From contig NW_024037061.1 of NCBI RefSeq assembly GCF_015706575.1, positions 1,043,897 to 1,107,896 on the forward strand: a stretch of DNA of 64,000 nucleotides. The letters are read 5' to 3'. The position numbers and the translations under genes were made by a program. Shown piece by piece: positions 2,725 through 29,100 of this stretch (position 1 is its first letter; each line of letters starts with the position of its first letter). The notes beneath the pieces are model-generated. The model was not told the DNA's origin and did no database searches. It worked only from the letters and a program-made list of their open reading frames with translations. This stretch comes from Patiria miniata. Taxonomy: Eukaryota.

Positions 2725-5457
2725 CACATGTACCGGTGTCGTGCCAAAAACCGTCCGGTGCCAAATAGTGTCCGCTAATTAGCATAATGCAATCTGATTG
2801 GCCACATGCGTCCATGACGTCACATTGTTTACGGAAGCTTGCAAATAGTGTCCGCGCTTAGCGTGCATCCTATTGCATGCCTTGTCGAGATGTCAAGGCG
2901 TCGTATAGATAAGATCTCTTTTCACCTGAATTTACATTTTACAATCTGTTTTAACGTTTTCCTTGTTATCTGTGATAACTATTAGACTAAGATTCCCTAA
3001 TAGTGTAAACATTATATTTGTGCAAAATGTTTGTTTTTTTCGTGTCAGTTCACCTGTTTGAAACACATGCAGTACGTACGAATAGGCCTAAAGTAACGCC
3101 GTAGTGTGTGTAGTTAGCTCTACTGAGTGGAGCGTTGAATTACGGGTACCCCTCCATACAAACGCTCCACCGATTTGCCATACTTTGGTGACGGCGTCAC
3201 AGTAGCATATAGTCACATACCCACGCGAGGACAAAAAGACCCCCCAAAAAACCGGTAAAGAGAATACAAATGAGAGAGACAGTTACCCTGGATTGATCTA
3301 CACATTCATGACATTCCATCAGACCCCTTACATTGTTCCCAAACAGCGAAAATTTTGAAGAAAAACAGCAAAATAGTCTGAAAACTTACAGCTCAATGAC
3401 TCGCCGTGAGGCTCAATCCTTGCACCGGTTTGCCGAATGAGGGCATCTGACGTGACGTCACCGTCGTTGCTCGATCGAAGAAAAACAAGTCGCGCTTTAT
3501 CAACGACTGTTTCGTGTAATGATACGTGCTCCTTGGGTGTGTTCAAAGCCCGTACTGTCGTACGGCGCGGATCGGAGCACGTATCATTGAATGACACGAA
3601 CAGTCGTTGATAAAGCGCGACTTGTTTTTCTTCGATCGAGCAACGACGGTGACGTCACGTCAGACGCCCTCATTCGGCAAACCGGTGCAAGGATTGAGCC
3701 TCACGGCGAACACATGAGGCTGTAAGTTTTCAGACTATTTTGCTGTTTTTCTTCAAAATTTTCGCTGTTTGGGAACAATGTAAGGGGTCTGATGGAATGT
3801 CATGAATGTGTAGATCAATCCAGGGTAACTGTCTCTCTCATTTGTATTCTCTTTACCGGGTTTTTGGGAGGTCTTTTTGTCCTCGCGTGGGTATGTGTCT
3901 ATGCTACTGTGACGCCGTCACCAAAGTATGGCAAATCGGTGGAGCGTTTGTATGGAGCGGTACCCGTAATTCAACGCTCCACTCAGTAGAGCTAGTGTAG
4001 TATAGTACTGTTCCGTGTAGCATTATAACCAACATTATTTCTGTTTGGTCAAAATCTAGAGGTCAAGATGCGGTTGTCTTGTACAATTAATCAGCGAATC
4101 TGAATGTCCATGGTCTATTGCATAGACTAGTCTGTGTGAGGGTTGCGCTTTAAAAGGTCTGAAACCCTGCAACTTTTTAAGAAGCTTGATCGAAGCACGC
4201 ATCGCCGACACCTATCAATGTCTCCAACGACAAGATAAATCATAATCATAAGCATAACACGAACATTTACATCTTTGCGTGCGTTTTAATCATCAATCAT
4301 TCGAAGACAATTCTCCCCCGCTGCTTTCCCCGTCATTGGCCCATGAACTTCGAGGTCATCGGTCGTATCGAAGGGACTTTCCCCAACTTTTACCGTTGGG
4401 TGATCAGTTGATAAAGCTCAGGCCACCAACCTCCAATTCCTCCGCATATGGTTTACAAAAACAAATCGAACCTCTGTTCTGAAACTATGTGTCATAGTGG
4501 ATTAATTTTGCTTTGTAATAATTCCTTCATTTTTAACCTGAAAGCATCTGAAAAATACAAATCATCAGGGCCATAGCCTGTCGATTGAAGGTGGTTTTAT
4601 GAGGTGGACCTTTTCATGTCTTATAAACAGCGGTTGAATAGGAAACATTTAGTCAAACTGAAATGTCAATCGCGAGGAAAAAGTGGACGTGCAGTTGATG
4701 TGTTTTTTTTAGGGGGGGTTCTTCTGACCCCCCCCCCTTCTCAAGTCCAGTGCTCGTGGCACAATTTAAATTTTCTGTCCTAATAACAATGACAATAGGT
4801 TCTCTTCTAATATCCCTTTTTGTTACAGTGATTAACAACAACAAAACAAACCAAACAAATTCAAGACTCAATGTCTTCCACTTTCAAGAGGATACAAAAC
4901 TTGAACACAATTTACCAGGAACAAAAAGTCAATATAACGAAAAATATATTATACACATAGACTGGCAATATGAGGTCACTAGTCTTTGTGCCCTGAGAGA
5001 CTGTGAGTGACCAGAAGAGGGTCCTATAATAGGACCCTAGCTCTTCCGGTCACTCACAGGCCCGAGGGGGCATAGACGTGCACTGAGGACCGAATTAATA
5101 TGCCAGATCCATGTTTTATAACTCATCTCTGTCCAAAATATTAAATAAGAAAAGAAACCTTTCAGTGTTTTATTCTTGAACTGTTTTAATTCAACAATTA
5201 ACTCCTAAGCAATTCAACTGTCAGCAATTCAACAATTTAAGGAACTTCACTTTTAGTTTCCCTAGATTACATTTTTGAATTTGAGTTTTGTCAGAGGGCG
5301 CTGTTACCAGTCAAACGTGCTCGATCAGGGGCTATATACTCTGGAAATTACGCGCGCGCGATGTCTCGACGCGCGTCTAGTTTCACACACTAGCCCATAT
5401 TAAGTGAATCACATGTGACCGCGTTTCAGCCAACCAGGATAATGAACAAGCAGGAGA
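2725..5457 (+). repeat. Left inverted-repeat arm of the composite element. Components: terminal motif, A segment, palindrome P, B segment, unit U.
   Basis: Reverse complement of 9521-12263. Sub-terminal direct repeats caaatagtgtccg occur three times near the terminus. Confidence 0.6.
3115..3993. repeat. Internal perfect palindrome P (arms about 435 bp, centre about 3557) within the left arm.
   Basis: tagctctactgagtggagcg...cgctccactcagtagagcta. The centre ccgtactgtcgtacgg is itself palindromic. It contains tgacgtca motifs. Confidence 0.7.
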
Positions 5458-5527
5458 TGACCAATCAGATCGCATTATGCTAGTAAGTGGACACTATTTG
5501 GCACCGGACAGTTTTTGGCACGACACC
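4279..5527 (+). repeat. Tandem sub-unit U1 (1.25 kb) of the left arm. It ends in a copy of the element's terminal motif.
   Basis: Starts taatcatcaatcattcgaagacaattctccc. Ends gaccaatcagatcgcattatgctagtaagtggacactatttggcaccggacagtttttggcacgacacc. Confidence 0.65.
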
Positions 5528-6777
5528 TGTCTTAATCATCAATCATTCGAAGACAATTCTCCCCCGCTGCTTTCCCCGTCATTGGCCCATGAACTTCGAG
5601 GTCATCGGTCGTATCGAAGGGACTTTCCCCAACTTTTACCGTTGGGTGATCAGTTGATAAAGCTCAGGCCACCAACCTCCAATTCCTCCGCATATGGTTT
5701 ACAAAAACAAATCAAACCTCTGTTCTGAAACTATGTGTCATAGTGGATTAATTTTGCTTTGTAATAATTCCTTCATTTTTAACCTGAAAGCATCTGAAAA
5801 ATACAAATCATCAGGGCCATAGCCAGTCGATGGAAGGTGGTTTTATGAGGTGGACCTTTTCATGTCTTATAAACAGCGGTTGAATAGGAAACATTTAGTC
5901 AAACTGAAATGTCAATCGCGAGGAAAAAGTGGACGTGCAGTTGATGTGTTTTTTTGGGGGGGGGGGTTCTTCTGACCCCCCTCCTCAAGTCCAGTGCTCG
6001 TGGCACAATTTAAATTTTCTGTCCTAATAACAATAACAATAGATTCTCTTCTAAAATCCCTTTTTGTTACAGTGATTAACAACAACAAAACAAACCAAAC
6101 AAATTCAAGACTCAATGTCTTCCACTTTCGAGAGGATACAAAACTTGAACACAATTTACGAGGAACAAAAAGTCAATATAACGAAAAATATATTATACAC
6201 ATAGACTGGCAATATGAGGTCACTAGTCTTTGTGCCCTGAGAGACTGTGAGTGACCAGAAGAGGGTCCTATAATAGGACCCTAGCTCTTCCGGTCACTCA
6301 CAGGCCCGAGGGGGCATAGACGTGCACTGGGGACCGAATTAATATGCCAGATCCGTGTGTTTTATAACTCATCTCTGTCCAAAATATTAAATAAGAAAAG
6401 AAACCTTTCAGTGTTTTATTCTTGAACTGTTTTAATTCAACAATTAACTCCTAAGCAATTCAACTGTCAGCAATTCAACAATTTAAGGAACTTCGCTTTT
6501 AGTTTCCCTAGATTACATTTTTGAATTTGAGTTTTGTCAGAGGGCGCTGTTACCAGTCAAACGTGCTCGATCAGGGGCTATATACTCTGGAAATTACGCG
6601 CGCGCGATGTCTCGACGCGCGTCTAGTTTCACACACTAGCCCATATTAAGTGAATCACATGTGACCGCGTTTCAGCCAACCAGGATAATGAACAAGCAGG
6701 AGATGACCAATCAGATCGCATTATGCTAGTAAGTGGACACTATTTGGCACCGGACGGTTTTTGGCACGACACCTGTC
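5528..6777 (+). repeat. Tandem sub-unit U2, near-identical to U1.
   Basis: ORF 5994..6254 is 96% identical to ORF 4750..5010. Ends with the same terminal-motif copy (6706-6777). Confidence 0.65.
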
Positions 6778-6910
6778 TTAATCATCAATCATTCGAAGAA
6801 AATTCTCCCCCGCTGCTTTCCCCGTCATTGGCCCATGAACTTCGAGGTCATCGGTCGTATCGAAGGGACTTTCCCCAACTTTTACCGGACGGTTTTTGGC
6901 ACGACACCGG
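6778..6910 (+). repeat. Truncated third unit (6778-6884) joined to a partial terminal motif (6885-6910), immediately upstream of the core gene's TATA box.
   Basis: The unit sequence breaks at ..ccaacttttaccg | gacggtttttggcacgacaccgg. Confidence 0.6.
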
Positions 6911-6948
6911 GCTTCGAGGTGAGCCAGTTGGAATCCTAGTTGCAATCC

Positions 6949-6956
6949 TATAAATA
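6949..6956 (+). promoter_or_regulatory. TATA box (tataaata) for the core Cys-rich gene.
   Basis: 126 bp upstream of the ATG at 7082. About 40 bp downstream of the inner terminal-motif copy. Confidence 0.45.
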
Positions 6957-7081
6957 CGGCACACTGGTTGTGGAGCTGGCACAGAACGGCCAAGAAAGTT
7001 AAGGGAAGCGACTTCAACTGCCGAACAGACGATTTCAAGTTGAGAGAAGCCGACACTTCATAGTTGCAATAATTCGACAAG

Positions 7082-7158
7082 ATGAATGCCTGTCATGTCA
7101 TCTTTGTTGTCGCCATTTCGGCCATCATGATCCTCGGTGCAAATGCAAACCGTAAATA
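7082..7158 (+). CDS. Exon 1 of the Cys-rich secreted protein gene (signal peptide).
   Basis: ATG; hydrophobic core; donor TA|gtaagt. Confidence 0.55.
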
Positions 7159-9156
7159 GTAAGTTCCGATTAAAGACTTGATTTAAAGCAAAGCAAAACA
7201 AAACAAATCTCCTGTTTCTGGTACACGCGCACATCGCCGTGGAACTTTTTTTCAATGTAAGATGATGTCTCAAAATAGGTTGACGGGAATCCTGCTGCCG
7301 CACAATTTTAACGTGTTTTTAGATGAGGTTACGTTCGAGTATAGGCTAAATTTATGTGGCCCCTCTGGGCTGCCATATATTTTGCACTAAATTTAGTCGG
7401 GCACCATTTTGCAGCCGGTATTGTAAATGTTTTAATTCAACCTCGTCCCCAGTGCTTACTTTATTTCCAACCGCGTTTCCAATAGTAAACCCTGGATAGG
7501 AAACTTTCTTCCTGTATCCTGATTGGATACCGCAATTGGCTAGTAATGGATATTTATCGTGTACTTGGTGCTATTATTCACAACGTGCAGTACGTGTTTT
7601 CGCGATCATTCGTCCCCGCCTTCTCGAAAATACTAATTTCCTTTCCAATTTGCTCATATTAATATGAACTATGATACTGCATGTTGTCTCGATAAGATCG
7701 TAACAGTTTGATTTCAAAAATCGTGTTTTCGTAACTCACGCCGTGCTCGCGCTGCTACGAATTGACTCTGTTTTTACCCCAGACACCGCATACAAAAACA
7801 AACGCTAATGTGTAACGCATATCCAGGCACCAGACTGTTCCTCATTTGCATACATGTGCACAAATCTTGCACATGCAAATGATCCAATACCAGGGTGAGA
7901 GAGCAGGTAGTGGTGGGCGCGTACTGCTCGACACCCTGGGAACGAGGTTGGTTTTAATTGTGCCAGACTGAGAGAGCGATGGTCGTGTATATCTGGAACC
8001 TGTAAACGCTTTAAAGAGGCGCAATATGTAAGGGAGCAGACTAATAACCAGCCTGACAGCACATGCACGATGTCGATGTCGCTGTTTGGTCTGACGTTAC
8101 CGTTTTCTCTGATTTTTGTCTTGACTTTCCAAATTTCCCAAAGAATGTTCGGGTCGGTCGAGATTGTTATGGGTGCAAAATTCTCAAGCCTTATGGCCTT
8201 ACCGAGGTCATCGCAGGTTGCACCCTGAGGGCTATTTTTGAGAGTTTTGGGGGGATAGGGGCGACCAAAATCCCCCAAAATGCCAGCCGTGGATATTCAT
8301 TCAAAGGGGGAGGGAGGGGGGGGGGGGCGTGGACAACACCATTACACTAGGGGCGTTGTTCATAATACAGCACATACATCTTTAACAAATGTATACATGT
8401 GCGTACGCGCCTTAAACATCAACACATTAAAACGGCGCATTTAATTAGAAACATCTCATTTTTCGATTGATGACATTCTGGTTGATGGGAAGCTTAGAAA
8501 AAAACCCCTGAAAATCCACATTTTTTTCTCAACACGAAAAAGTGCGAGGGGTGGGAGATCCAATTGCCCATCCCCACCCCCCCCCCCAGTCAAAAACTGG
8601 CCGGGGATGTATACCCCCCCTTCCCGGATTAACGCCCCTGCCTCCGACTTCCGTCATTTAAAGGGGAAAACTACTAACAAGTTAGTATGCAGTTCGAATC
8701 ATTACATTACCACTGAGCTTTGTATGTTTTGTTTTTCTTTGATGCAGCTGTTATTGCGATCTTCGATGGAGCACAACCCAGCTAAGAGCAGGGCAGAGCA
8801 CCAATGGTTTATGGTTCTTGGAGGACCTACCTAACCCGAGCTACCACCACTGGCTCGTCGTGGGCTGCCAGGCGGTCCATCGAAACTGCCCCACCGACTG
8901 CCTGGATGAGGCCCATGACTGGATGGGCGGGTCTAGGTTCACCAACACGGCGGGCCAGCTGGCCTGCGAGAGCGTGCGGAGGAACGCGCCTCCAGGCAGT
9001 CCGATCTACGTGTACGCAACGTACGACAGCGTGTGCGGCGATCGCACGTGGCAGTATGTGGCCCCGCTCTGCTGCTGGAAGATCACGCTCCCTGGCTACG
9101 GCAACACCTTTGTGTACAACCACAGATGTGAAAATTCGAGTCCACCAAGATACTGA
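7082..9156 (+). CDS. Two-exon gene (exons 7082-7158 and 8748-9156) for a small secreted cysteine-rich protein, about 161 aa. Family not recognised.
   Basis: Exon 1 ATGAATGCC... encodes the signal-peptide-like MNACHVIFVVAISAIMILGANANRK and ends phase 2 (..AAA TA) at a consensus donor |gtaagt. Exon 2 follows a pyrimidine-rich acceptor ttttgtttttctttgatgcag| and restores the frame: TA+C gives Y, then CYCDLRWSTTQLRAGQSTNGLWFLEDLPNPSYHHWLVVGCQAVHRNCPTDCLDEAHDWMGGSRFTNTAGQLACESVRRNAPPGSPIYVYATYDSVCGDRTWQYVAPLCCWKITLPGYGNTFVYNHRCENSSPPRY*. 10 Cys. TGA at 9154-9156. Confidence 0.55.
8748..9156 (+). CDS. Exon 2 of the Cys-rich secreted protein gene.
   Basis: Acceptor gatgcag|. Open frame to TGA at 9156. 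Corresponds to ORF 8818..9156 extended upstream. Confidence 0.55.
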
Positions 9157-9283
9157 GTTGTTTCTAGTTACTACCATACACATGATGGTTGGTGCCATGA
9201 TGCTGACTAGCGAAGCTTCAACTTCATGTGAACTCATACACAGACTGCATGGCGCTGACGCTGTAACATTGCTATTGCGAAAC

Positions 9284-9289
9284 AATAAA
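9284..9289 (+). terminator. Poly(A) signal AATAAA for the core gene. A second one lies at 9339-9344.
   Basis: 128 bp and 183 bp downstream of the stop codon. Confidence 0.4.
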
Positions 9290-9520
9290 TTGTTGCAAAG
9301 TTTATTTTCAGATTTAAGTCAAAGTACCAAACTACTTCAATAAACGGTATTTTGGAAGTTGTAGTACTCAGAACATATACTTGTTACACCCCCTAATTCG
9401 CTTGAACTCTGTCCCGTTAAAATTTAGAAAACAGTAGTCATAATTACCGATTTTTTTATTGATTTACTTAACGTGCAGTAAACGTAATAAATTAACATTG
9501 TGAGGCTATTTTCGTTTTTA

Positions 9521-12263
9521 ACACATCTCCTGCTTGTTCTTTATCCTGGTTGGCTGAAACGCGGTCACATGTGATTCACTTAATATGGGCTAGTGTGTGA
9601 AACTAGACGCGCGTCGAGACATCGCGCGAGCGTAATTTCCAGAGTATATAGCCCCTGATCGAGCACGTTTGACTGGTAACAGCGCCCTCTGACAAAACTC
9701 AAATTCAAAAATGTAATCTAGGGAAACTAAAAGCGAAGTTCCTTAAATTGTTGAATTGCTGACAGTTGAATTGCTTAGGAGTTAATTGTTGAATTAAAAC
9801 AGTTCAAGAATAAAACACTGAAAGGTTTCTTTTCTTATTTAATATTTTGGACAGAGATGAGTTATAAAACATGGATCTGGCATATTAATTCGGTCCCCAG
9901 TGCACATCTATGCCCCCTCGGGCCTGTGAGTGACCGGAAGAGCTAGGGTCCTATTATAGGACCCTCTTCTGGTCACTCACAGTCTCTCAGGGCGCAAAGA
10001 CTAGTGACCTCATATTGCCAGTCTATGTGTATAATATATTTTTCGTTATATTGAGTTTTTGTTCCTCGTAAATTGTGTTCAAGTTTTGTATCCTCTTGAA
10101 AGTGGAAGACATTGAGTCTTGAATTTGTTTGGTTTGTTTTGTTGTTGTTAATCACTGTAACAAAAAGGGATTTTAGAAGAGAATCTATTGTCATTGTTAT
10201 TAGGACAGAAAATTTAAATTGTGCCACGAGCACTGGACTTGAGGAGGGGGGTCAGAAGAACCCCCCCTAAAAAAAACACATCAACTGCACGTCCACTTTT
10301 TCCTCGCGATTGACATTTCAGTTTGACTAAATGTTTCCTATTCAACCGCTGTTTATAAGACATGAAAAGGTCCACCTCATAAAACCACCTTCCATCGACT
10401 GGCTATGGCCCTGATGATTTGTATTTTTCAGATGCTTTCAGGTTAAAAATGAAGGAATTATTACAAAGCAAAATTAATCCACTATGACACATAGTTTCAG
10501 AACAGAGGTTCGATTTGTTTTTGTAAACCATATGCGGAGGAATTGGAGGTTGGTGGCCTGAGCTTTATCAACTGATCACCCAACGGTAAAAGTTGGGGAA
10601 AGTCCCTTCGATACGACCGATGACCTCGAAGTTCATGGGCCAATGACGGGGAAAGCAGCGGGGGAGAATTGTCTTCGAATGATTGATGATTAAAACGCAC
10701 GCAAAGATGTAAATGTTCGTGTTATGCTTATGATTATGATTTATCTTGTCGTTGGAGACATTGATAGGTGTCGGCGATGCGTGCTTCGATCAAGCTTCTT
10801 AAAAAGTTGCAGGGTTTCAGACCTTTTAAAGCGCAACCCTCACACAGACTAGTCTATGCAATAGACCATAGACATTTGAGCAGATTCGCTGATTAATTGT
10901 ACAAGACAACCGCATCTTGACCTCTAGATTTTGACCAAACAGAAATAACGTTGGTTATAATGCTACACGGAACAGTACTATACTACACTAGCTCTACTGA
11001 GTGGAGCGTTGAATTACGGGTACCGCTCCATACAAACGCTCCACCGATTTGCCATACTTTGGTGACGGCGTCACAGTAGCATAGACACATACCCACGCGA
11101 GGACAAAAAGACCCCCCAAAAACCCGGTAAAGAGAATACAAATGAGAGAGACAGTTACCCTGGATTGATCTACACATTCATGACATTCCATCAGACCCCT
11201 TACATTGTTCCCAAACAGCGAAAATTTTGAAGAAAAACAGAAAAATAGTCTGAAAACTTACAGCCTCATGTGTTCGCCGTGAGGCTCAATCCTTGCACCG
11301 GTTTGCCGAATGAGGGCATCTGACGTGACGTCACCGTCGTTGCTCGATCGAAGAAAAACAAGTCGCGCTTTATCAACGACTGTTTCGTGTCATTCAATGA
11401 TACGTGCTCCGATCCGCGCCGTACGACAGTACGGGCTTTGAACACACCCAAGGAGCACGTATCATTACACGAAACAGTCTTTGATAAAGCGCGACTTGTT
11501 TTTCTTCGATCCAGCAACGACGGTGACGTCACGTCAGACGCCCTCATTCCGCAAACCGGTGCAAGGATTGAGCCTCACGGCGAGTCATTGAGCTGTAAGT
11601 TTTCAGACTATTTTGCTGTTTTTCTTCAAAATTTTCGCTGTTTGGGAACAATGTAAGGGGTCTGATGGAATGTCATGAATGTGTAGATCAATCCAGGGTA
11701 ACTGTCTCTCTCATTTGTATTCTCTTGAACGGTTTTTTGGGGGGTCTTTTTGTCCTCGCGTGGGTATGTGACTATATGCTACTGTGACGCCGTCACCAAA
11801 GTATGGCAAATCGGTGGAGCGTTTGTATGGAGGGGTACCCGTAATTCAACGCTCCACTCAGTAGAGCTAACTACACACACTACACACTACGGCGTTACTT
11901 TAGGCCTATTCGTACGTACTGCATGTGTTTCAAACAGGTGAACTGACACGAAAAAAACAAACATTTTGCACAAATATAATGTTTACACTATTAGGGAAAC
12001 TTAGTCTAATAGTTATCACAGATAACAAGGAAAACGTTAAAACAGATTGTAAAATGTAAATTCAGGTGAAAAGAGATCTTATCTATACGACGCCTTGACA
12101 TCTCGACAAGGCACGCAATAGGATGCACGCTAAGCGCGGACACTATTTGCAAGCTTCCGTAAACAATGTGACGTCATGGACGCATGACCAATCAGATCCC
12201 ATTATGCTAATTAGCGGACACTATTTGGCACCGGACGGTTTTTGGCACGACACCGGTACATGT
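9521..12263 (-). repeat. Right inverted-repeat arm of the composite element.
   Basis: Reverse complement of 2725-5457. It lacks the extra tandem units and the inner terminal-motif copy. Confidence 0.6.
10990..11879. repeat. The same palindrome P within the right arm.
   Basis: Mirror copy of 3115-3993. Confidence 0.7.
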
Positions 12264-20127: not shown

Positions 20128-23100
20128 GTTGGTAAATTTTCTCATACACTAAGTATGATCACCATTTACGTGAAATTAAATGAAATATCCTAAATTTAAC
20201 AAAAATGTAAGTATTTTTTGTAGTATACATGTCCCAGCTGCTATCATAACGTGCGCATTGTACAGTTGTAGGGGGCATGCGTGGCGTCTGACATGTACTG
20301 CGTACTTATGTATGAATATATGCAACTGCTTTACTGAACATTGTTGGAACTTCAAATCTGAAGGTTTCGGGTAGAAATGCTAAGGGAATAAAATGCGCAT
20401 TACCCCTTTTAGATGATCACTGCATGCGGTACATGTAGGCCCAGTGAAGGTCCCCATATGCAAAAATGCTTGGGAAAGACCGTGACATCCCCCCCCCCCC
20501 CACGTTTTCTAATAGTACTCGGTATGAAGTGCTTTTTACTGTTAGATTTTGTGTTTTGTATATGAGGAACAAATCAAGTCTCTTTTTCTGAAATGAAGAT
20601 GGTGATTATTGTCCGTTTTCCTTTGCATGTTTTCATTTATTCATGGAGGTAGAAAAAAAACCATGGTTCATTGTATACATGTACAAATCATCTGTACATG
20701 ATGCAGTGGTGGACAGATGAATGTTGTGGTATTTCTTTTTAAATAAAGATGCCCAACTTGTGATGAGAGTATGCAAATAACCTTAAATTTTCACAGTTAC
20801 TAGTCAATAACACGTATTTTCTACTAAATGGAGCGATCGCCACATATTTTAAAATATGTTTTTTTCAAACTCGGTCACTTTAATTTTTACTCCCTGTGAT
20901 GAGATAAGGACTGGCCAGCCAACCTTGGTGGCCCAGTTCTTGTAATTAAGGTGTCTGCACTTCATACAGTGCAAGTTCTCCGACAGTGAACGGCGCTAAT
21001 TTCATTACGTTGGTGAAGGGCGAAACTTAAACCATAAACTCATCATATTCAACGATCAAATTAGTCAATATTTGTTGGTACTCTATCACTGTCCCCAAAA
21101 CCCATCCAAACTAATATTGACAGGTCTGTCTGTCTGCAGATCAGCTTGACCTTTAGACAAGTATCTATTTTAAGCTGGTATAAGTGTAGATCTAGGTCAT
21201 CAATTATTGGCCAGGACAAACGTTAATGATTGTACCAGGCATGCATTGAGCTCTTAAGTGATTGGCCAGTTCTGCTCAAATGCCCCAGACTGCAGAATCT
21301 CATTGGTCAACAGCTGGGTACCTCATTGATGAGCTCTTATGTGATTGGCCAGTTCTGCTCAAATGGCCAGACTGCTGAATCTCATTGGACAACAGCTGGC
21401 TACCTCATTGATGAGCTCTAAAGTGATTGGCCAGTTCAGCTCAAATGGCCAAACTGCATAAACTCATTGGTCAACAGCTGGCGACCTCATTGAGGAGCTC
21501 TTAAGTGATTGGCCAGTTCTGCTCAAATGCCCCAGACTGCTGAATCTCATTGGACAACAGCTGGCGACCTCATTGATGAGCTCTAAAGTGATTGGCCAGT
21601 TCTGCTCCAATGCCCCAGACTGCAGAATCTCATTAGACAACAGCTGGTGACCTCGTTGATACAAATTTGGGGGTTACAACGGGAGGTCACTGGCTGTTTT
21701 TCAATAACAAGTATTTGGTGACCCTGGAGCACTTAGTTCCTCAAGGACCAAGGATTACTGGATTTGCACAGTACTACTGTAGGATAACCTCCAGTGCTTG
21801 TGCAGTGTAAGCTGTGCACGTACTGTATGTATACATATGTACAATGTGCTGTATACGTACAGTATCTGTACTCGTGGAGGAAGTGGATTGTTTCTGTTGG
21901 CAGCTATAGAAATTAGAAGGGTAAGTCTTCAGCTTAAAAATAATTAGGGGGGGGGGGGGGAGGATTCGGCCTACGATTTACAATATTCTTCAATTGAAAA
22001 ATACATGTAAACATCCCAATTTGGTTTTGGCATTTCTGTACACCGGGCTGTGCCCAGGCAAGCCTCATTTTGCCATAAATCCTCACAAATATTTGGAGCT
22101 GTTCAAAATCTTATTAAAAAATGACAAATGGCCTACATTGCACATGTACATGTCCAATGTACCATACATACACGTAGCTGGCCAAAATGCATCTTGTTAA
22201 GAAATGATGAATGGCCTGAACTCTCCTGCTGCATTGCCCTTCTGAACTTTATATCAATAAATTAATATGAAATATGATACTTGTGTAAACCAAAATGTGG
22301 AATTTGAGATGAGTTCATGCCACGAAAATATTCTGCATAATTGGTAAAATATATCCTTAATGTGTATCTCTGTAGGGTTATCATAATTATAGGCTTTTTG
22401 AGAAACTAGCTGCTGACCACGAAGTTCTCGGCGAATTATTTGCGTTGCGCTTGCTAGTTCTGTACAGAATTTAGCTTTTTAGGGATACTTTTTCTCATCT
22501 TTATTTACAGTTTTTATGTCAGATAAAGGGGTTCACTGGAAGTGTGGTCATGGTGGGGAGACTTTGTGTTGTAAGACAACCTTTGACATAAAGTCCAAGT
22601 AGCCTTCTACATTTATGTTCACTGTATGTACTTCCGACCATTTTTCAGTAACTACAGTGTACATACACTTTAGTTTGAATTCATGTCATGGTTGCGTGAA
22701 TTCTTGCAGCTGCTCACATGCAGTAAGTTGAATCATATTTTTCTTACAACTCAGAAGAAATTTACAAGCATGTATTGTACAATGTATCAACGGGAAAATG
22801 AGTTTGTTTTTTGCCAGTGCCAACAGTACAAATCCAAGTGGAATTGAGCAGTATGTAGGTAGGAACTGGAAAACTCAAATCATACAAAATGTTCCCTCTA
22901 GGTAGTGAGAATTTTACTGATCGAGTCCAACAGAAGTAAAAGGTGAGGGAAAATGTGGTGTTCTACCACAGTCTTAAATGTACCGGTATGTATAAAGGGT
23001 AAACATTATAGGAGCTGTACATTGTTGAAAATACAGAGTTTTAAGAGTTCATTTATTTGATGTCCAACAGCAACGTGTCGACCTGTCCAAAGACTGGACG

Positions 23101-26100
23101 TCCTTCATCGGAACCTCAACCCCAAGCCTGTCGCCCTACAAGGATCCAGACCAGGCCGCCTCCTCTTCCTCAAATCCGGACTCCGTCTTTGTTCTCCTGG
23201 AGGCCTCCCCGCCCAAGACGGATCGGCAGGGTCGCCTGAATCTGCGCAAGGTGGCCCGGGAGCGAGTCGTGAAGCTCTCCGGGCTGACCACTCCACTGGC
23301 GTGGAAATCAGGCGAGCCGTTTGGCATTCTGGTCCAGGCCTCTGCCAACAACTTTGGGCTGGTGGGCTCTGCCTATCTGGAAGGGGTGCTGGAGCTTGAC
23401 GACGGCCTGCTGGTAGAGCAGATAGTCTGTGAGTACATGTGAAACATTGTAGTGATTGGACCGATAGCATGTTGAATATGTTGAATAATAAACCAGCCAA
23501 GCATGTCAATCACGGGGGTTCCCCAGTCGCCACCCGCGATACGGCAGTCTTGTATGCAGTGTGAAACCGTGAAGTCGTGTCCCTCTCTGATGTGTGGCTG
23601 ACTCTGCGCTGCCTCACGACTCCGCGCTGCTATAGCTCTAGACTCCCATAGTACTGCTGTACTACAACATCAGGTTTGGCAAAGGTAGTGAGAGAGTGCA
23701 TGGGTGAGAGTTGTTAGTACCGGTAGGAGACTGTCTCAAAATTGAAAGCATACAAGGTTCATTCAGAATATAGTACAGTCTTGATGACATTTCACTGGTG
23801 AGATTATTTTGGATTTGTGATATAGAAAATGGCAAATTTCAGCTGTGACAGCTTACTCTGTGTACAATCATTTTTCAGGTGTTGATACAATTGGGGAGCC
23901 GTTCAACCTCGTCAATCAAGACCCCAAGACTCCTTCGCCTTCCCCCTTCCCACCCGGTTCCCCCTTCCACCGTTCTCCCTCCGGAAACAGCCTCCTCCAA
24001 AGATCAGGTTCGTCCAAAAAGGAGGTAAAACCGCTGCGCCGGAAACACTCTCAGGAATTCCTCAAGAAATTGGAGGAGCAGCATCAGAGAATTTCCCGCA
24101 AATCCTCGTCGGAGTCGAGCGACCTGGGTGGCATCTCGGTCGAAATGGCCGGTCAGGGACTAGATGATGAAGTACTGGTGGACATTGAAGGGAGTCCGAA
24201 ATTTCATCTAGGAGGAGCCACAATCGACGTTGGAGGCACATCCTCGGGAGATGCCAGCAATGTCTCAAGGAAGCCTCCCAATCTTCTTGTGTATACGGGA
24301 AGTGACGACACGGACAAATCCAGATACAAGTCCTCGGTGGCTTTTCTGGAGAAATTCCTGCACCGGGATCGCTATGTCATCTACCATTTGGAGCAAGAAC
24401 AAGCTTTGAAACATCCGTGGGCCGAAAACTGCAAGCTTCTTCTCCTAATGACGGGCAAAGAACCCATTCCCGAGAACACACTGAAGAAGTTTACCGATTA
24501 CGTTAAGAGTGGCGGATTTCTTTTCGTACTTGATGGCCAAAGTGCCAACTCTGAAACACCTGCGAGCGTGAGCGCTATTAAGTACTCGGAAATGCTCGGA
24601 GGGGAGATGCTGTCCTTTCAAGGCCTTTGTTCTGAGGATCCCCTAAAGAGGGACTTGTTTCCTGGGGGACAAATGAAGGTGCTGGCAGAGAGTCAAGGAA
24701 ACGCTGTCATTACCGAAACTTCCTTCAAAGGTAGCGCAGGAAAAATCATATCTTCTCAAGTAAGTCACTAAAATCTACATGTATCAATACACTTACATGT
24801 AGTATTCCGGAGTTTGCAAGTTCAAACCTCGCTCAATGCAATTTCTTTGTTCGAGCTTTAAATTACAAAAATGCATCATGTTTGTTGTCTTGTTGTGGTT
24901 CATTTGAAGATGTATATCATTGTATAACCAGTTCACGCCGGATGACTAGTATACCAGCAAATTGGTTTTGCGGTATTCGGAACAAATGACTGATAAACAC
25001 GCAGGGAGCGATGCCGGAAATATCTGTCAGAGACCCGCTCGTAGCGAGCAAGGTCGGGAATATGAGTGTGCTGCCCGAGGGTGATGGTTTCAACCCGCCT
25101 GGCTTGAGATCGCGTGAAAAGTAATCCCGCACCTCGTTCCGTTTTTGTCAAAATAATCCCGCGCCAACTGGTTAACATTTAGGAATAATTTTTTACATCT
25201 GTAATTGCGATATTTCCACATTGAAATGAAAAAAAAAAAGTTCAAATTTTTTGATGTCAAGATTTGGGCTGTGAGGTTGAACTAACATGTTCATGTAGTC
25301 ATGACTCATTCCCTGTACAATTTACAAGATGCATGCTCGTCATGTCATTCGTCACATTAGCATTTCAGTCCATGGAAACATGTGCATATGATTACTACCA
25401 GATAACGTGACACTGTGACGATATTAACAACTGCCCGTCTGAAGTTAGATTCCTATCTATCACATTTCAAAATGAGAAAAGAACATGTGATGCTGAGTCT
25501 CATTAGTGAACAGAACAAAAAACCACAAGGGAATGTGACCATGCTACATTGAACATTTGTTGACTGCTGTGATGTGGGTTATGGTGTTTTAACACCCAAG
25601 GGGCGCATAGCACCCGAAGCGAATTATGGAACAAAGTGATTGACTGGAGTGGGGTTTGAACCTGCGACCTCCGGATTGGTGTTCCGGTGCTCTACCAACT
25701 GAGCTATCCAGCCCAATGTTGGCAGTTACCTATTTTGTCAATGTCTTTGTTCAAGGGGCGCTAGTCAGAAGCCATGAACTATATGCCATGCATGTATCCA
25801 GGGATCACGCCCAAAGTCACGATGCTAGCAACATTAACAATGCTGCAAACCTGGAAAATATGTAGAAAACAGTGATCACTCAAAGAGGATACATCTTTTT
25901 ATTGCAAATATTCAAATAAACAACATTTTAATCAAATATGTGCATAAATTTTCATGTTTTTATGGTAACAGGTCCAGCTTCAACTCATCTCCCCAGAGAG
26001 TCTGGTTCCGGACACCGAAGCCTTTACTGAACTTAAACAGTCCAATGAGGTCCGACACCAGGTCATCTTTGACCTTCTGGGCCGGCTGGGGTTAAAGTGC

Positions 26101-29100
26101 GCGACCTCCGAGCTACCAGATCTGACTGCCGGCTACCTGCTTGGTGTTAATGAGGTAAAACTGAAAAAAATGCTGCTAAATTATGTTTTAGTTAAACATG
26201 GGGAAGGTATTTTAGAAAAATATCTGGTTGATTAAGTTTCAGAAAACTTGCATCAAACATGCAATACACTGTTTTGAAATAAATTAGAATAAAAAAAATT
26301 GACTAATTTCTTGCTTGGCTTTTCACTTTATTGATACATACCATCGTACACATTTCATCTTTTCATAATGTGTTACCCTCACATTTAAAAATGCCATACT
26401 ATTATTTTGTTAATTATTTTTTTCAACATTATTTTATCAGTGTCTATTCAATCAAGATTTAAAAAGAGGTCATTTTTCCTCCCTCTGGAAGTGACCCTTT
26501 TGATTCATTGCAGAAATTAGAAAATTATGGTATTAACAACAACACAGGAAAACATTACCGTTCTTGTGTAATAAGAATCTGCCTTCAAAGATTTTTTTTT
26601 ATTTTTCAAATATCTGAAGTACTTAAGAAGATTTTTTTTTATGTGTATGTTTGGTGAGAAAGTACACAAAGTATATTCTTACGGTAGGGACAATTGTAAT
26701 GATGAGAATACAGGATACCTTACAGATGCAGCTCTGACTAAAAGGCGCTTGTTAAATCACTATTTTGTCTGGTTATTTTATCAGGCAGTTTATAGTGGAA
26801 TCCGGCGACCAGAATTTGAAGTTTTTTCTGCGGTGGTGTCATGCTCACGCGCATGCTGCAGGCATTCTTAAAGACGAGGCGCACGCGCATTTTGGTATTC
26901 CTATTGGTTGAAGGCGCCTGGAGTGCATGTGTACTACCTGAGGGCGACTCGCGCGAGTCTGGTGCCACCGTAGAAAATTGCTGCCGCCTGATTTGTCTAT
27001 TGGCAATGTGGATCTCGTGTGAAAATGTAGATATTCGGGTCTGGCCGCATTTGTCACATTAACGTATATTGTTTCTCATGGTCCCTATTCGAACGACGGA
27101 TGTGAATCAAGTTTTAATATTTTACACTTCTGAAAAGATATCCATCTTTGTTTTATGATTGATGATGGTTGTGTCATCAAGTGACATTGTTTATCGCAGG
27201 GCAGGACCTCCATGGAATGCGGGCTAGCGCGATATGGGCGCGTGCAGGACTTGCGTTGACTTGTATGTGTATCACACGGAATGTGACGGTCTGCCAACAT
27301 GTAAAAATGACAAGAATCTGCGAATCCATTAATTTTTTTTTATCCTGACTGGCTGTAGTTTCTTTCAGTTTGTTTATCACTCATCAGAAAGCAATCCGTT
27401 TGATTTCTAGTCATGCAAGACACAAGATGAGTATTTATTTTTTTGACAGCTTGCCTGTACATAACTTCGAGCAGGTTTCGTATTCCATATATTCCACACA
27501 TGCACGGGCATCTGTTTGGAGCATGCTGTTTCTCCTGCTCACTTTGAGCTTAAATTACAAGTACATGTACATGTCGTGAAGAATACTTAGTCATATAGTT
27601 AAAGGGAATATACAACATTTACAAACATCGAAAAACAAAACTACCAAGTGTTTACGAAATACCTTACTAGGATGTTGGTAAATGACAGTCTAAAGCATCC
27701 TGTAAAGTTATGTCACCTGGTGTGAAGTCATTTTCAAGAAAATGGTATTTTTGTATACATTTCCAACGGTGGTCAGCCGACCACTATTGGAAAAACCTAA
27801 CTATTTTTCAACTATTGCTCCAAATTTACAAATGTTTTTTTCAGTCAAAATGTTGTTTGCTATTGGTTACATGTTCATGAATGGGTGCAGGCCAGCTAGA
27901 CTGGTTCCCTTACCTTACAATTTTCCAGCATCTATAAATTGATCCATTTTATTTTTACTGGAGTCAGGGAACCAGACTACTTGAGCTTTTTTGTTTTTCT
28001 TGGTTTTTCCAGCATTTTCGAACACAAAACTTCAAACATGTCAGTGTAACAATATTTGATCTATTATACTAACCCCTCAAATACCGTAGTTCATTTCTGA
28101 AAATTAGAGCAAACATTCCCTTTAAATGAAGCATGTGTCTACATGTGTTGAATCCAAACCCTGATATTTCAAATTGTTTGCTGTCACATGGATTTTAAAG
28201 TGTAAGAAATTCACATGGTTTAAGAATGTACAGTTGAATTTGCACACGACATGTATTTTTTTTTTTGGGTAGCTTTTATGTACCGGTACATGTACATGTA
28301 CATGTACATGATGTAGCTTTTTTTTTTGTTTTTTTGTTTTTTAATATCTACTATAATACATGAACATGTATGTTGGCTAGAAGTATACAATACATACATG
28401 TGCACTGCCTCACAATTAAAAATTGAATAAAAAAACTAGCTCCCTGTATTGCTCTTCTAAAGGGGCCACACGGGCAGATACAAGGGGGTGGTTTGGTGCA
28501 CCCCCCCCCCTTCCTCACCTTCCAGCTGGGCAAGTTAAAAAAAAATTAATAAAAAAACCCACCAAAATTCCTTAATTCTCCTGATTAACACCATCACTCA
28601 ATATTGCAAATCGTGATTCATTGCTTAACCCTAACCCCCTAGGCCCTTGTTGCTTACAACCATCCTCAATCCTCCAAAATCCTCCAAAATTTTGCAACTC
28701 TGCCTAAATTTTTCAAAATTGTCAGACAGTCCTGCCTCAAAATGCATTCATCCTCAATCCTCCAAAATCCTCCTCATCCCAAAACTTTGCACTCGTGTTT
28801 AAATGAAGGATAACCAATGCCAAATCCTTCAAAATCATCAGACAGTCCTGCCTCAAAATGCATTCATCCTCAATCCTCCAAAATCCTCTTGTGCTTCAAT
28901 CACCATTCATCCTCAATCCTCCAGAACCCTCATTTGATTCAATCACCATTCATCCTCGATCCTCTAGAATCCTCCAAAACCGCCAGGAGGATTTTGGAGG
29001 AGTGAGGTGGGTTAGGGTTAAGGCCTTTCAGTCTGTTTATGCATTGACGGCAACGTCTTGTCCACCCTTTCCCCCCCCCCCCTTGAAAAAAGTCAACACC

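What the first reader, a model, noticed from the sequence alone, without database searches (positions are those of the whole stretch)
7082..9156. Uncharacterised two-exon gene for a small secreted 10-Cys protein in the element core
The signal-peptide exon MNACHVIFVVAISAIMILGANANRK ends in phase 2 at a perfect donor TA|GTAAGT. The downstream exon after a ttttgtttttctttgatgcag| acceptor restores the frame: TA+C gives Tyr. It then reads CYC...GCQAVHRNCPTDCLDEAHDW...LACE...VCGDRTWQYVAPLCCW...HRCENSSPPRY*. I cannot place the Cys spacing in a family (not CTLD, FReD, EGF or Kazal). The ORF table offers two overlapping plus-frame ORFs (8804.., 8818..) and a minus ORF, but only the spliced model explains the TATA box, signal peptide, splice sites and poly(A) signals together.
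Basis: partly seen in the sequence, partly recalled or inferred. Interest (0 to 1): 0.7.

Follow-up and report, generated by a model that had tools for sequence, protein, structure and literature searches.

The report
Bat-star gene for unclassified secreted protein
This is a real two-exon gene of the bat star Patiria miniata, already in RefSeq as an "uncharacterized protein", which encodes a small secreted cysteine-rich protein from a family with no name, no Pfam model and no match among solved structures.

Summary
Joining 7082-7158 to 8748-9156 gives a 161-aa protein with a signal-peptide-like N-terminus and 10 Cys in the mature part. It is 100% identical over its full length to RefSeq XP_038059424.1, "uncharacterized protein LOC119730529", of Patiria miniata.

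- **Gene model.** The same phase-2 intron, one base before the first Cys codon, is present in the Acanthaster planci gene and in a sea-cucumber genomic contig. dN/dS against A. planci is 0.24.
- **Family.** It has at least 13 loci in P. miniata and one in A. planci. More distant members occur in sea cucumber, amphioxus, a barnacle and krill. All are unnamed and none matches Pfam.
- **Function.** No polar residue is invariant across phyla, so I infer a non-enzymatic extracellular binding or ligand protein. It may be trimmed at a conserved basic site just before the first Cys.
- **Context.** The gene fills the unique core between 98%-identical inverted repeats (2726-6705 and 9524-12263). These arms have no coding capacity, no target-site duplication and no counterpart at the A. 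planci locus.

The gene model is already known, the family is undescribed, and the interest is moderate.

The parts
6703..6776 (+). 74-nt upstream segment with a CCAAT box (6707). It is the last part of the 1246-bp repeat unit and probably part of the proximal promoter.
   Evidence: CCAAT at 6707. The same segment lies at each arm junction: 2732-2804 (inverted), 5457-5530 and 12184-12257. A promoter role is inferred, not tested.
6949..6956 (+). TATA box (TATAAATA), about 130 nt upstream of the ATG.
   Evidence: The block TATA(A/G)ATACGGCACA is conserved upstream of the A. planci gene.
7082..7158 (+). Coding part of exon 1. It holds the signal peptide (residues 1-22, 7082-7147), then N-R-K and the first two bases of Tyr26. 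It ends in phase 2.
   Evidence: tblastn gives 100% identity for residues 1-25. It is identical to the N-terminus of XP_038059424.1. AlphaFold places a helix at 3-22, and the Kyte-Doolittle maximum is 3.1 over residues 6-17.
7159..8747 (+). Intron of 1589 nt, phase 2, GTAAGT...polypyrimidine tract-CAG.
   Evidence: The same position and phase occur in A. planci (2217-nt intron) and in a holothurian genomic contig (L001, tttcag|T TGC TGG TGT).
8748..9156 (+). Coding part of exon 2, including the stop codon. It encodes the whole cysteine-rich domain (residues 26-161, 10 Cys).
   Evidence: tblastn gives 100% identity for residues 27-161. Homologues were found at E from 1e-112 down to 1e-4. dN/dS is 0.24 against A. 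planci. The AlphaFold model has pLDDT 82.9.
9157..9345 (+). Probable 3' UTR, with AATAAA at 9284 and 9339. The exact poly(A) site is unknown.
   Evidence: Similarity to the A. planci 3' flank continues to about 9350. The extent is inferred.
2726..6705 (.). Left arm of the long inverted repeat. It contains about 2.1 copies of a 1246-bp tandem unit (4283-6887) and a nested palindrome (3115-3994). It is non-coding.
   Evidence: No ORF is longer than 89 aa.
9524..12263 (.). Right arm of the long inverted repeat. It is the reverse complement of 2726-5459 at 98.3% identity.
   Evidence: Read outward from the repeat ends, the two flanks share no target-site duplication.

Best explanation
The feature is an intact, ordinary nuclear protein-coding gene of the bat star Patiria miniata (RefSeq LOC119730529). 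It is one recent paralogue of a multigene family.

**How it most likely works**
- Transcription starts about 30 nt downstream of a conserved TATA box.
- A single phase-2 intron separates a signal-peptide exon from an exon that encodes the whole domain.
- The 161-aa precursor enters the ER. Signal peptidase cuts after Ala22 (ANA|NRK).
- The 139-aa, roughly 16-kDa product folds into one compact domain: an antiparallel beta-sheet packed against two helices, held by five disulfides. It is then secreted as a soluble protein.
- It may be trimmed further at the conserved basic pair (RK here; KR, RR or xR in other phyla) that sits just before the first Cys.

**Function**
- Across phyla only cysteines, one glycine and a few aromatic or small residues are conserved. 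No His, Asp, Glu, Lys or Ser constellation is conserved.
- I therefore infer a non-enzymatic extracellular binding protein or ligand, not an enzyme.
- The near-neutral pI argues against a classical cationic antimicrobial peptide.

**Shown versus inferred**
- Shown: the gene model, its conservation and purifying selection, the family's distribution, and the lack of any known domain or solved-structure neighbour.
- Inferred: secretion, the disulfide count, processing at the basic site, and a binding rather than catalytic role.

The inverted repeats that flank the gene are a feature of this locus, not of the family.
For: **Gene model and conservation**
- The spliced product is identical to XP_038059424.1.
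- Intron position and phase are conserved in A. planci and in a holothurian. The TATA block is conserved in A. planci.
- dN/dS is 0.24, with a third-position excess of substitutions.

**Family**
- At least 13 P. miniata loci lie on three scaffolds, and A. planci has one.
- Distant members occur in Branchiostoma, Apostichopus, Amphibalanus and Meganyctiphanes.
- A spliced transcript contig encodes a full-length homologue, L006.

**Protein features**
- All full-length homologues with a complete N-terminus have a hydrophobic leader and a small-residue cleavage motif.
- The Cys core is conserved: C27, C66, C73, C99, C122, C134, C135, C153.
- C29 and C77 are lost together in two homologues. The C-terminal Cys pair is lost together here and in the two closest paralogues, LOC119730776 and LOC119734046. 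That is the behaviour expected of disulfide partners.
- The AlphaFold model has pLDDT 82.9 and pTM 0.73.
- A sea-cucumber paralogue carries a propeptide of about 95 aa ending ...FRR directly before the domain.
- Mature pI ranges from 4.7 to 9.4 across the family and is 7.7 for this copy.
Against: - I could obtain no transcript evidence for this particular paralogue. Its 90% cluster holds only the RefSeq/UniProt entry, and exact look-ups found no contig.
- This copy has lost the sixth disulfide and one Pro codon relative to most paralogues, so it could be a decaying copy.
- SignalP was not available. Cleavage and secretion rest on sequence rules.
- The structural model rests on only 14 sequences, and its coordinates could not be inspected, so disulfide pairing is indirect.
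- Nothing tested here bears directly on function.
Confidence: 0.8

Rival explanations
1. This particular copy is a recent, silent or decaying duplicate: a pseudogene in the making inside a rearranged, repeat-rich locus. It would not be a working gene.
For: - It has lost the C-terminal Cys pair through an 11-nt deletion and a TGT>AGT change, and it lacks the Pro before SVC.
- Its promoter-proximal region is built from the tandem repeat unit.
- No transcript-derived sequence for it was found in the protein collection.
- It shares no microsynteny with the A. planci locus.
Against: - The ORF is intact, the splice signals are canonical, and the TATA box is conserved.
- dN/dS is 0.24.
- Loss of the sixth disulfide is shared with two other full-length paralogues, LOC119730776 and LOC119734046. 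The amphioxus homologue P0014 also lacks that Cys pair. It is therefore a tolerated state.
Confidence: 0.12
2. The gene is cargo of, or belongs to, a foldback-type mobile element. On this reading the 2.7-4 kb inverted repeats are the element's termini, and mobilisation of the cassette explains the family's expansion in P. miniata.
For: - Long inverted arms at 98% identity are built from tandem sub-repeats and nested palindromes. They enclose a unique core that is essentially just the gene, from promoter to poly(A) signal.
- The family has at least 13 loci dispersed over three scaffolds.
- The same 74-nt segment marks every arm junction.
Against: - There is no target-site duplication at the outer ends.
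- The arms contain no transposase or any long ORF.
- No other copy of the arms lies in the 64-kb window.
- The A. planci gene has no such repeats.
- Homologues in other phyla look like ordinary host genes with signal peptides.
Confidence: 0.1
3. The inverted-repeat setting is an assembly artefact, for example a chimeric or foldback long read, or haplotypes joined head to head. The gene is real but the 'element' is not.
For: - The arms are nearly identical (98-99%) and abut the gene tightly. Such palindromes are a known failure mode of long-read assemblies; this is my own knowledge and was not tested.
- There is no counterpart in A. planci.
Against: - The arms are not perfect copies. They differ by 1.7%, and the left arm has an extra 1246-bp unit.
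- The core is unique and asymmetric, not itself duplicated.
Confidence: 0.12
4. The real gene is one of the other ORFs over exon 2: antisense 8827-9285 or plus-frame 8804-9343.
For: Both are long ORFs of 152 and 179 aa. The antisense frame is also nearly open in A. planci, with one stop.
Against: - Neither has a Pfam match above threshold.
- The +2 frame carries two stops in A. planci.
- The substitution pattern (26/19/45 by codon position) and all homologues from six animal groups follow the Cys frame.
- RefSeq annotates the Cys frame.
- Open antisense frames are a common by-product of GC-rich third positions.
Confidence: 0.02

Closest known systems
RefSeq XP_038059424.1 / UniProt A0A914A7J9, 'uncharacterized protein LOC119730529' (Patiria miniata)
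   Same: Identical 161-aa sequence, so this is the same gene with the same exon junction.
   Different: Nothing differs. The database entry carries no function, domain or family name.
Sea-star paralogues and orthologue: P. miniata LOC119730776, 730839, 730856, 730895, 730919, 734042/046, 733935, 734114, 737077, 737481, 737483; Acanthaster planci LOC110982826
   Same: - 57-84% identity, similar length (158-169 aa for the full-length models) and the same kind of signal peptide.
- Same two-exon structure, intron phase and TATA block in A. planci.
   Different: - Most have 12 mature Cys. This copy and LOC119730776/734046 have 10, having lost the C-terminal pair.
- The A. planci locus has no flanking inverted repeats and different neighbours, DMAP1 and bestrophin-like.
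Distant unnamed homologues: Branchiostoma Hypp687 / BRAFLDRAFT_83020, Apostichopus japonicus XP_071846670 (two domains) and PIK59329 (with propeptide), Amphibalanus amphitrite LOC122375117, Meganyctiphanes norvegica CAL4101649
   Same: - A signal peptide, then a basic residue or residues, then C-x-C.
- The same eight core Cys, including the CC(W) doublet, and the conserved stretch P-x-H-x-Y-A-x-Y-x-x-S-x-C...Y-L-G-E-x-C-C-W.
- The holothurian gene has the same intron position.
   Different: - Identity is 24-38%.
- Some have C-terminal acidic or low-complexity tails, a tandem second domain, or an N-terminal propeptide of about 95 aa. Two lack the C29/C77 pair.
- None has a described function.
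Foldback-type transposons with long, internally repetitive inverted termini (Drosophila FB; sea-urchin TU elements). Recalled from my own knowledge, not checked in a paper here.
   Same: Kilobase-scale inverted arms made of tandem sub-repeats, flanking a unique middle segment.
   Different: - No target-site duplication and no transposase.
- Copy number in the genome is unknown.
- The middle segment is a conserved host-type gene that lacks the arms in A. planci.
Photosystem I PsaC / 4Fe-4S ferredoxin motif
   Same: Local resemblance of GCQAVHRNCPTDCL to C-x-x-C-x-x-x-CP-T-D (E 0.09-2).
   Different: The CxxCxxC part is absent. The match is not significant and disappears with the broader family profile. 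This is a secreted animal protein, so the resemblance is due to chance.

Membership tests
Unnamed LOC119730529-like secreted Cys-rich family (sea stars, sea cucumber, amphioxus, crustaceans) | Significant full-length sequence similarity to other members | tested here: met
   E from 1e-112 to 1e-54 for sea-star members. The profile search gives 4e-25 for amphioxus, 4e-13 for sea cucumber, 6e-10 for barnacle and 4e-5 for krill.
Unnamed LOC119730529-like secreted Cys-rich family | Conserved Cys framework: C-x-C after a basic residue, C-x6-C-x3-C in helix 1, C in helix 2, C in the beta-hairpin, the CC doublet, and a late C | tested here: met
   C27, C29, C66, C73, C77, C99, C122, C134, C135 and C153 are all present. 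The optional sixth pair is absent.
Unnamed LOC119730529-like secreted Cys-rich family | Phase-2 intron one base before the first Cys codon, separating the leader exon from the domain exon | tested here: met
   Window 7158/8748. A. planci 10095/12313. Holothurian contig L001.
Any Pfam-A family (includes C-type lectin, fibrinogen-related, EGF, Kazal, PLA2, IL-17, cystatin, saposin and others) | A match to the family HMM at or near the gathering score | tested here: not met
   No family at E <= 10 for this protein. For 10 diverse homologues there were only chance hits with E >= 0.07.
4Fe-4S ferredoxin (PsaC-like) | CxxCxxCxxxCP cluster-binding motif, with a significant sequence match | tested here: not met
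   Only C-x6-CPxDC is present. E is 0.09 with the 5-sequence profile, and there is no hit at E <= 1 with the 14-sequence profile.
Foldback-type transposable element (as the setting of the gene) | Long terminal inverted repeats composed of sub-repeats | tested here: met
   Arms 2726-6705 and 9524-12263 at 98.3% identity, with a 1246-bp tandem unit and nested palindromes.
Foldback-type transposable element (as the setting of the gene) | Target-site duplication at the outer ends | tested here: not met
   On the plus strand the left flank ends ...GATGGTAGTG and the right flank begins CCAATCGAG... (shown as its reverse complement CTCGATTGG); they share no duplication.
Foldback-type transposable element (as the setting of the gene) | Multiple copies in the genome, or insertion polymorphism | not testable with these tools
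   The P. miniata assembly is not in any searchable DNA collection here. No second copy lies in the window.
Prohormone / proprotein-type secreted ligand | A conserved mono- or dibasic convertase site between the leader or propeptide and the mature domain | tested here: inconclusive
   A basic residue or residues precede the first Cys in all members: RK, KR, RR or xR. A. japonicus PIK59329 has a propeptide of about 95 aa ending FRR|TC. Cleavage has not been demonstrated, and the residues could instead be part of the mature protein.

The most novel reading that the evidence does not exclude
The gene belongs to a so-far undescribed, ancient bilaterian family of secreted five- or six-disulfide proteins, shared by echinoderms, cephalochordates and crustaceans. 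Its alpha+beta fold is not represented among solved structures. The proteins would act as proprotein-derived extracellular ligands. In the bat star the family has recently multiplied, and this copy is packaged as the unique core of a 9.5-kb inverted-repeat cassette that could drive its duplication or inversion.
Probability: 0.35. Interest if true: 0.55.

Novelty: new variant of a known kind. Interest (0 to 1): 0.35.

Why it matters
- **Biologically.** The gene model itself adds nothing, because RefSeq already has it. What is new is that this 'uncharacterized protein' is not a sea-star orphan. It belongs to a compact family shared by echinoderms, amphioxus and crustaceans, with a conserved intron and Cys framework, no Pfam model and no solved structural relative. 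It has expanded to at least 13 loci in the bat star.
- **Possible follow-up.** Families like this are candidates for unrecognised extracellular signalling or defence molecules in marine invertebrates. P. miniata is an experimentally tractable developmental model in which expression and knock-down could be tested.
- **The locus.** The tight packaging of a single gene between 98%-identical inverted repeats is also a small, testable case of how repeats may shape gene-family expansion.

Tried and rejected
**Sequence and family searches that found nothing useful**
- Pfam on the protein, on 10 homologues and on the alternative ORFs.
- PDB sequence search with two family profiles. Only chance PsaC hits appeared, and they vanished with the broader profile.
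- A word-indexed homologue search with the 14-sequence alignment returned only 7 proteins and missed members already in the query. A search with the unidentified-organism homologue P0022 returned only itself.

**Structure**
- The first AlphaFold run, with 5 sea-star sequences, was unusable at pLDDT 37. The run with 14 diverse sequences gave pLDDT 83.

**Locus and expression look-ups**
- Exact-sequence look-ups for P0001-P0003 and for the exon-2 ORF found no contigs. I could not fetch the paralogue loci or any P. miniata transcripts.
- tblastn of the protein against the window found no second copy.
- tblastx of the A. planci locus against the window found no shared neighbours.
- Rfam on the whole window found only an unrelated tRNA.

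**Literature**
- Searches by locus, accession and peptide strings returned no papers.
- A keyword search and two candidate papers, on the H. glaberrima genome and the P. miniata skeletal proteome, contained nothing on this family.

**Ideas rejected**
- Phospholipase A2-like 'HD' site: the His is invariant only within sea stars.
- Cationic antimicrobial peptide: the pI is near neutral or acidic in most members.
- Transposase or TE protein: the arms have no long ORF, and homologues in other phyla are host-type genes with signal peptides.
Full report
**1. The observation.**
The window is eukaryotic DNA.
- The ATG is at 7082. Twenty-five codons (MNACHVIFVVAISAIMILGANANRK) are followed by TA|GTAAGT at 7158/7159.
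- A polypyrimidine tract and CAG end at 8747. TA+C gives Tyr, and the frame stays open to TGA at 9154-9156.
- The product is 161 aa with 11 Cys, one in the leader and 10 in the mature part.
- TATAAA lies at 6949 and CCAAT at 6707. There is no upstream ATG. AATAAA lies at 9284, 9339 and 9486.
- Eighteen of the GT/AG pairs tested (donor GT in 7086-7400, acceptor AG in 8401-8830) keep an intact frame. 7158/8748 gives the longest product and is the pair confirmed independently below.

**2. Identity.**
The spliced protein is 100% identical over 100% of its length to XP_038059424.1 / A0A914A7J9, "uncharacterized protein LOC119730529 [Patiria miniata]". tblastn finds only this one copy in the 64-kb window.

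**3. Independent support for the gene model.**
The Acanthaster planci relative (LOC110982826, locus L005) has the same structure.
- Exon 1 is 10001-10095 and ends ...AAGCA|GTAAGC. A 2217-nt intron follows. Exon 2 starts TTCAG|C TGC TTT TGT. This is the same codon and the same phase 2.
- The TATA block TATA(A/G)ATACGGCACA is conserved upstream.
- A holothurian genomic contig (L001) has tttcag|T TGC TGG TGT at the same place.
- Nei-Gojobori dN/dS between the window gene and the A. planci gene is 0.24 (dN 0.29, dS 1.23).
- Differences over the gap-free part of exon 2 fall 26/19/45 on codon positions 1/2/3.

The plus-frame ORF 8804-9343 is interrupted in A. planci. The antisense frame stays nearly open in both species. 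Neither ORF has a Pfam match above threshold, and I could not search them for homologues. I attribute the open antisense frame to composition.

**4. The family.**
- P. miniata has at least 13 loci on three scaffolds, and A. planci has one plus a partial exon-2 copy.
- A neighbour-joining tree puts the window copy in a P. miniata-specific clade with LOC119730776, 734046 and 730895. A second P. miniata clade (737077, 737481, 737483) branches outside the A. planci gene.
- An exhaustive HMM search of 1.84 billion representative proteins, using the sea-star profile, found ten further proteins at E <= 1e-3. They come from Branchiostoma (4e-25, 1e-17, 4e-9, 7e-7), Apostichopus japonicus (4e-13, a two-domain protein; 1e-4), the barnacle Amphibalanus amphitrite (6e-10), the krill Meganyctiphanes norvegica (4e-5) and an unidentified organism known only from sequencing-run assemblies. 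There was also one low-complexity false positive.
- All are 'uncharacterized' or 'hypothetical'.
- One of them, L006, is a contiguous transcript encoding the full precursor, so at least that homologue is expressed.
- No sea-urchin, vertebrate or insect member appeared in that single search.

**5. Protein anatomy.**
- The alignment shows a hydrophobic leader ending in a small-x-small motif. One or two basic residues follow (RK, KR, RR, xR), and then C-x-C.
- Eight Cys are near-universal: C27, C66, C73, C99, C122, C134, C135 and C153.
- C29 and C77 are both missing in the krill protein and in the unidentified homologue.
- The C-terminal pair (C-P-P-x(1-4)-C) is missing together in this copy, in its two closest paralogues and in the amphioxus protein P0014. 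Here the loss is an 11-nt deletion plus TGT>AGT. Such joint losses are what disulfide partners show, so I infer five disulfides in this protein and six in most paralogues.
- The mature product is 139 aa, 15.9 kDa, with pI 7.7 and one N-x-S sequon at N155. Family pI values range from 4.7 to 9.4.
- The A. japonicus paralogue PIK59329 / XP_071838991 inserts about 95 residues between the signal peptide and ...LFRR|TCWC. This suggests that the conserved basic site may be a convertase site. It does not prove it.

**6. Fold.**
- With five sea-star sequences AlphaFold failed (pLDDT 37). With the 14-sequence cross-phylum alignment it gave pLDDT 82.9 and pTM 0.73.
- The model has a leader helix at 3-22, strands at 24-34, 48-52 and 57-59, helices at 66-85 and 92-102, and strands at 112-120, 123-133, 135-140 and 144-149.
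- The AlphaFold-database libraries were not available.
- Pfam has no model for this protein or for ten diverse relatives.
- PDB sequence searches gave only a chance resemblance of GCxxVxxxCPTDC to the PsaC ferredoxin motif. It disappeared with the broader profile.

**7. Mechanism.**
- Shown: an intact, conserved, selectively constrained two-exon gene with a leader exon and a domain exon.
- Inferred from established rules (signal-peptide h-region and the -3/-1 rule, an even number of conserved Cys, no C-terminal hydrophobic segment): co-translational ER entry, cleavage after Ala22, oxidative folding and secretion as a soluble 16-kDa domain.
- Inferred from conservation: no polar residue is invariant across phyla, only Cys, Gly95 and a few Tyr/Ser positions. 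A catalytic role is therefore unlikely, and a binding or ligand role is the best guess.
- The lineage-specific multiplication in P. miniata is typical of environment-facing or signalling gene families. It does not discriminate among immunity, chemical communication and development.

**8. The 'element'.**
- The gene is the unique core (6888-9523) between inverted arms 2726-5459 and 12263-9524, which are 98.3% identical.
- The left arm is lengthened by a 1246-bp tandem unit to 6705/6887. Each arm contains a nested palindrome.
- A 74-nt CCAAT-containing segment marks each arm junction, and part of it recurs just upstream of the TATA box.
- The arms encode nothing longer than 89 aa. There is no target-site duplication.
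- The A. planci locus has no such repeats and different neighbours.
- Foldback-like mobile cassette, local inverted duplication and assembly artefact therefore all remain possible. The test is to look at the other paralogue loci and at spanning long reads, which I could not do.

**9. Literature.**
Searches by locus tags, accessions and peptide strings returned no papers. A keyword search and two candidate papers mentioned nothing relevant.

**10. Verdict.**
- The gene model is already in RefSeq, so the gene itself is not new.
- The family is undescribed, spans at least three phyla, and has no Pfam model and no solved structural relative. That makes it a modestly interesting target, not a surprise. 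Uncharacterised secreted Cys-rich families are common in marine invertebrate genomes.
- Interest is 0.35.

Noticed in passing
window 2732-2804(-), 5457-5530, 6703-6776, 12184-12257; also 6884-6914: A 74-nt segment sits at each arm junction (the two outer ends, the tandem-unit boundaries and the left arm's inner end). It contains a CCAAT box and a 17-nt doublet, GGACnnTnTTTGGCAC. Part of it recurs about 40 nt upstream of the gene's TATA box. It could be a recombination breakpoint motif or a repeated cis-regulatory module.
   Followed up: partly
window 3115-3994 and 10989-11869: An 880-bp near-perfect palindrome (92%) is nested inside each arm of the large inverted repeat.
   Followed up: no
window 25641-25713 (-): A tRNA gene (Rfam RF00005, 54 bits). 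It was the only Rfam hit in the window.
   Followed up: no
window 30809-31771 (-): A single-exon 320-aa ORF with a signal peptide, a PAN/apple domain and a fibrinogen C-terminal domain (Pfam E 6e-59). It is a fibrinogen-related protein gene. The surrounding sequence is partly duplicated (27599-29021 versus 33286-35703).
   Followed up: partly
window 23845-24771 (+) and 44630-45451 (+): Two long exons. One has a weak biotin-protein-ligase N-terminal match (E 7e-6). The other is an MFS transporter exon (E 1e-19).
   Followed up: partly
window 52687-53198 and 21248-21698: Two tandem arrays: a 64-nt unit in about 8 copies and an 82-83-nt unit in about 5 copies.
   Followed up: no
window 8313-8336 / 8564-8587 (inside the intron): A G-run and a C-run form an imperfect inverted repeat 227 nt apart within the gene's intron. 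It may be a small inserted repeat.
   Followed up: no
L005 4010-4177 (A. planci DF978581.1): A partial second copy of the last 56 codons of the A. planci gene (84% protein identity, 95% DNA identity over 150 nt) lies 8.5 kb upstream of the intact gene. It is likely a gene fragment.
   Followed up: no
P0026 (A. japonicus XP_071838991.1 / PIK59329.1) and P0016 (XP_071846670.1): Sea-cucumber relatives vary the architecture. One has a propeptide of about 95 aa ending FRR before the domain. The other has two tandem domains, each lacking one Cys (C153 in the first, C122 in the second), which hints that C122 and C153 may be partners.
   Followed up: partly
window 8827-9285 (-) and L005 12313-12727 (-): The antisense frame of exon 2 is almost free of stops in both sea stars. 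It has no Pfam match, and I read it as a compositional by-product.
   Followed up: partly
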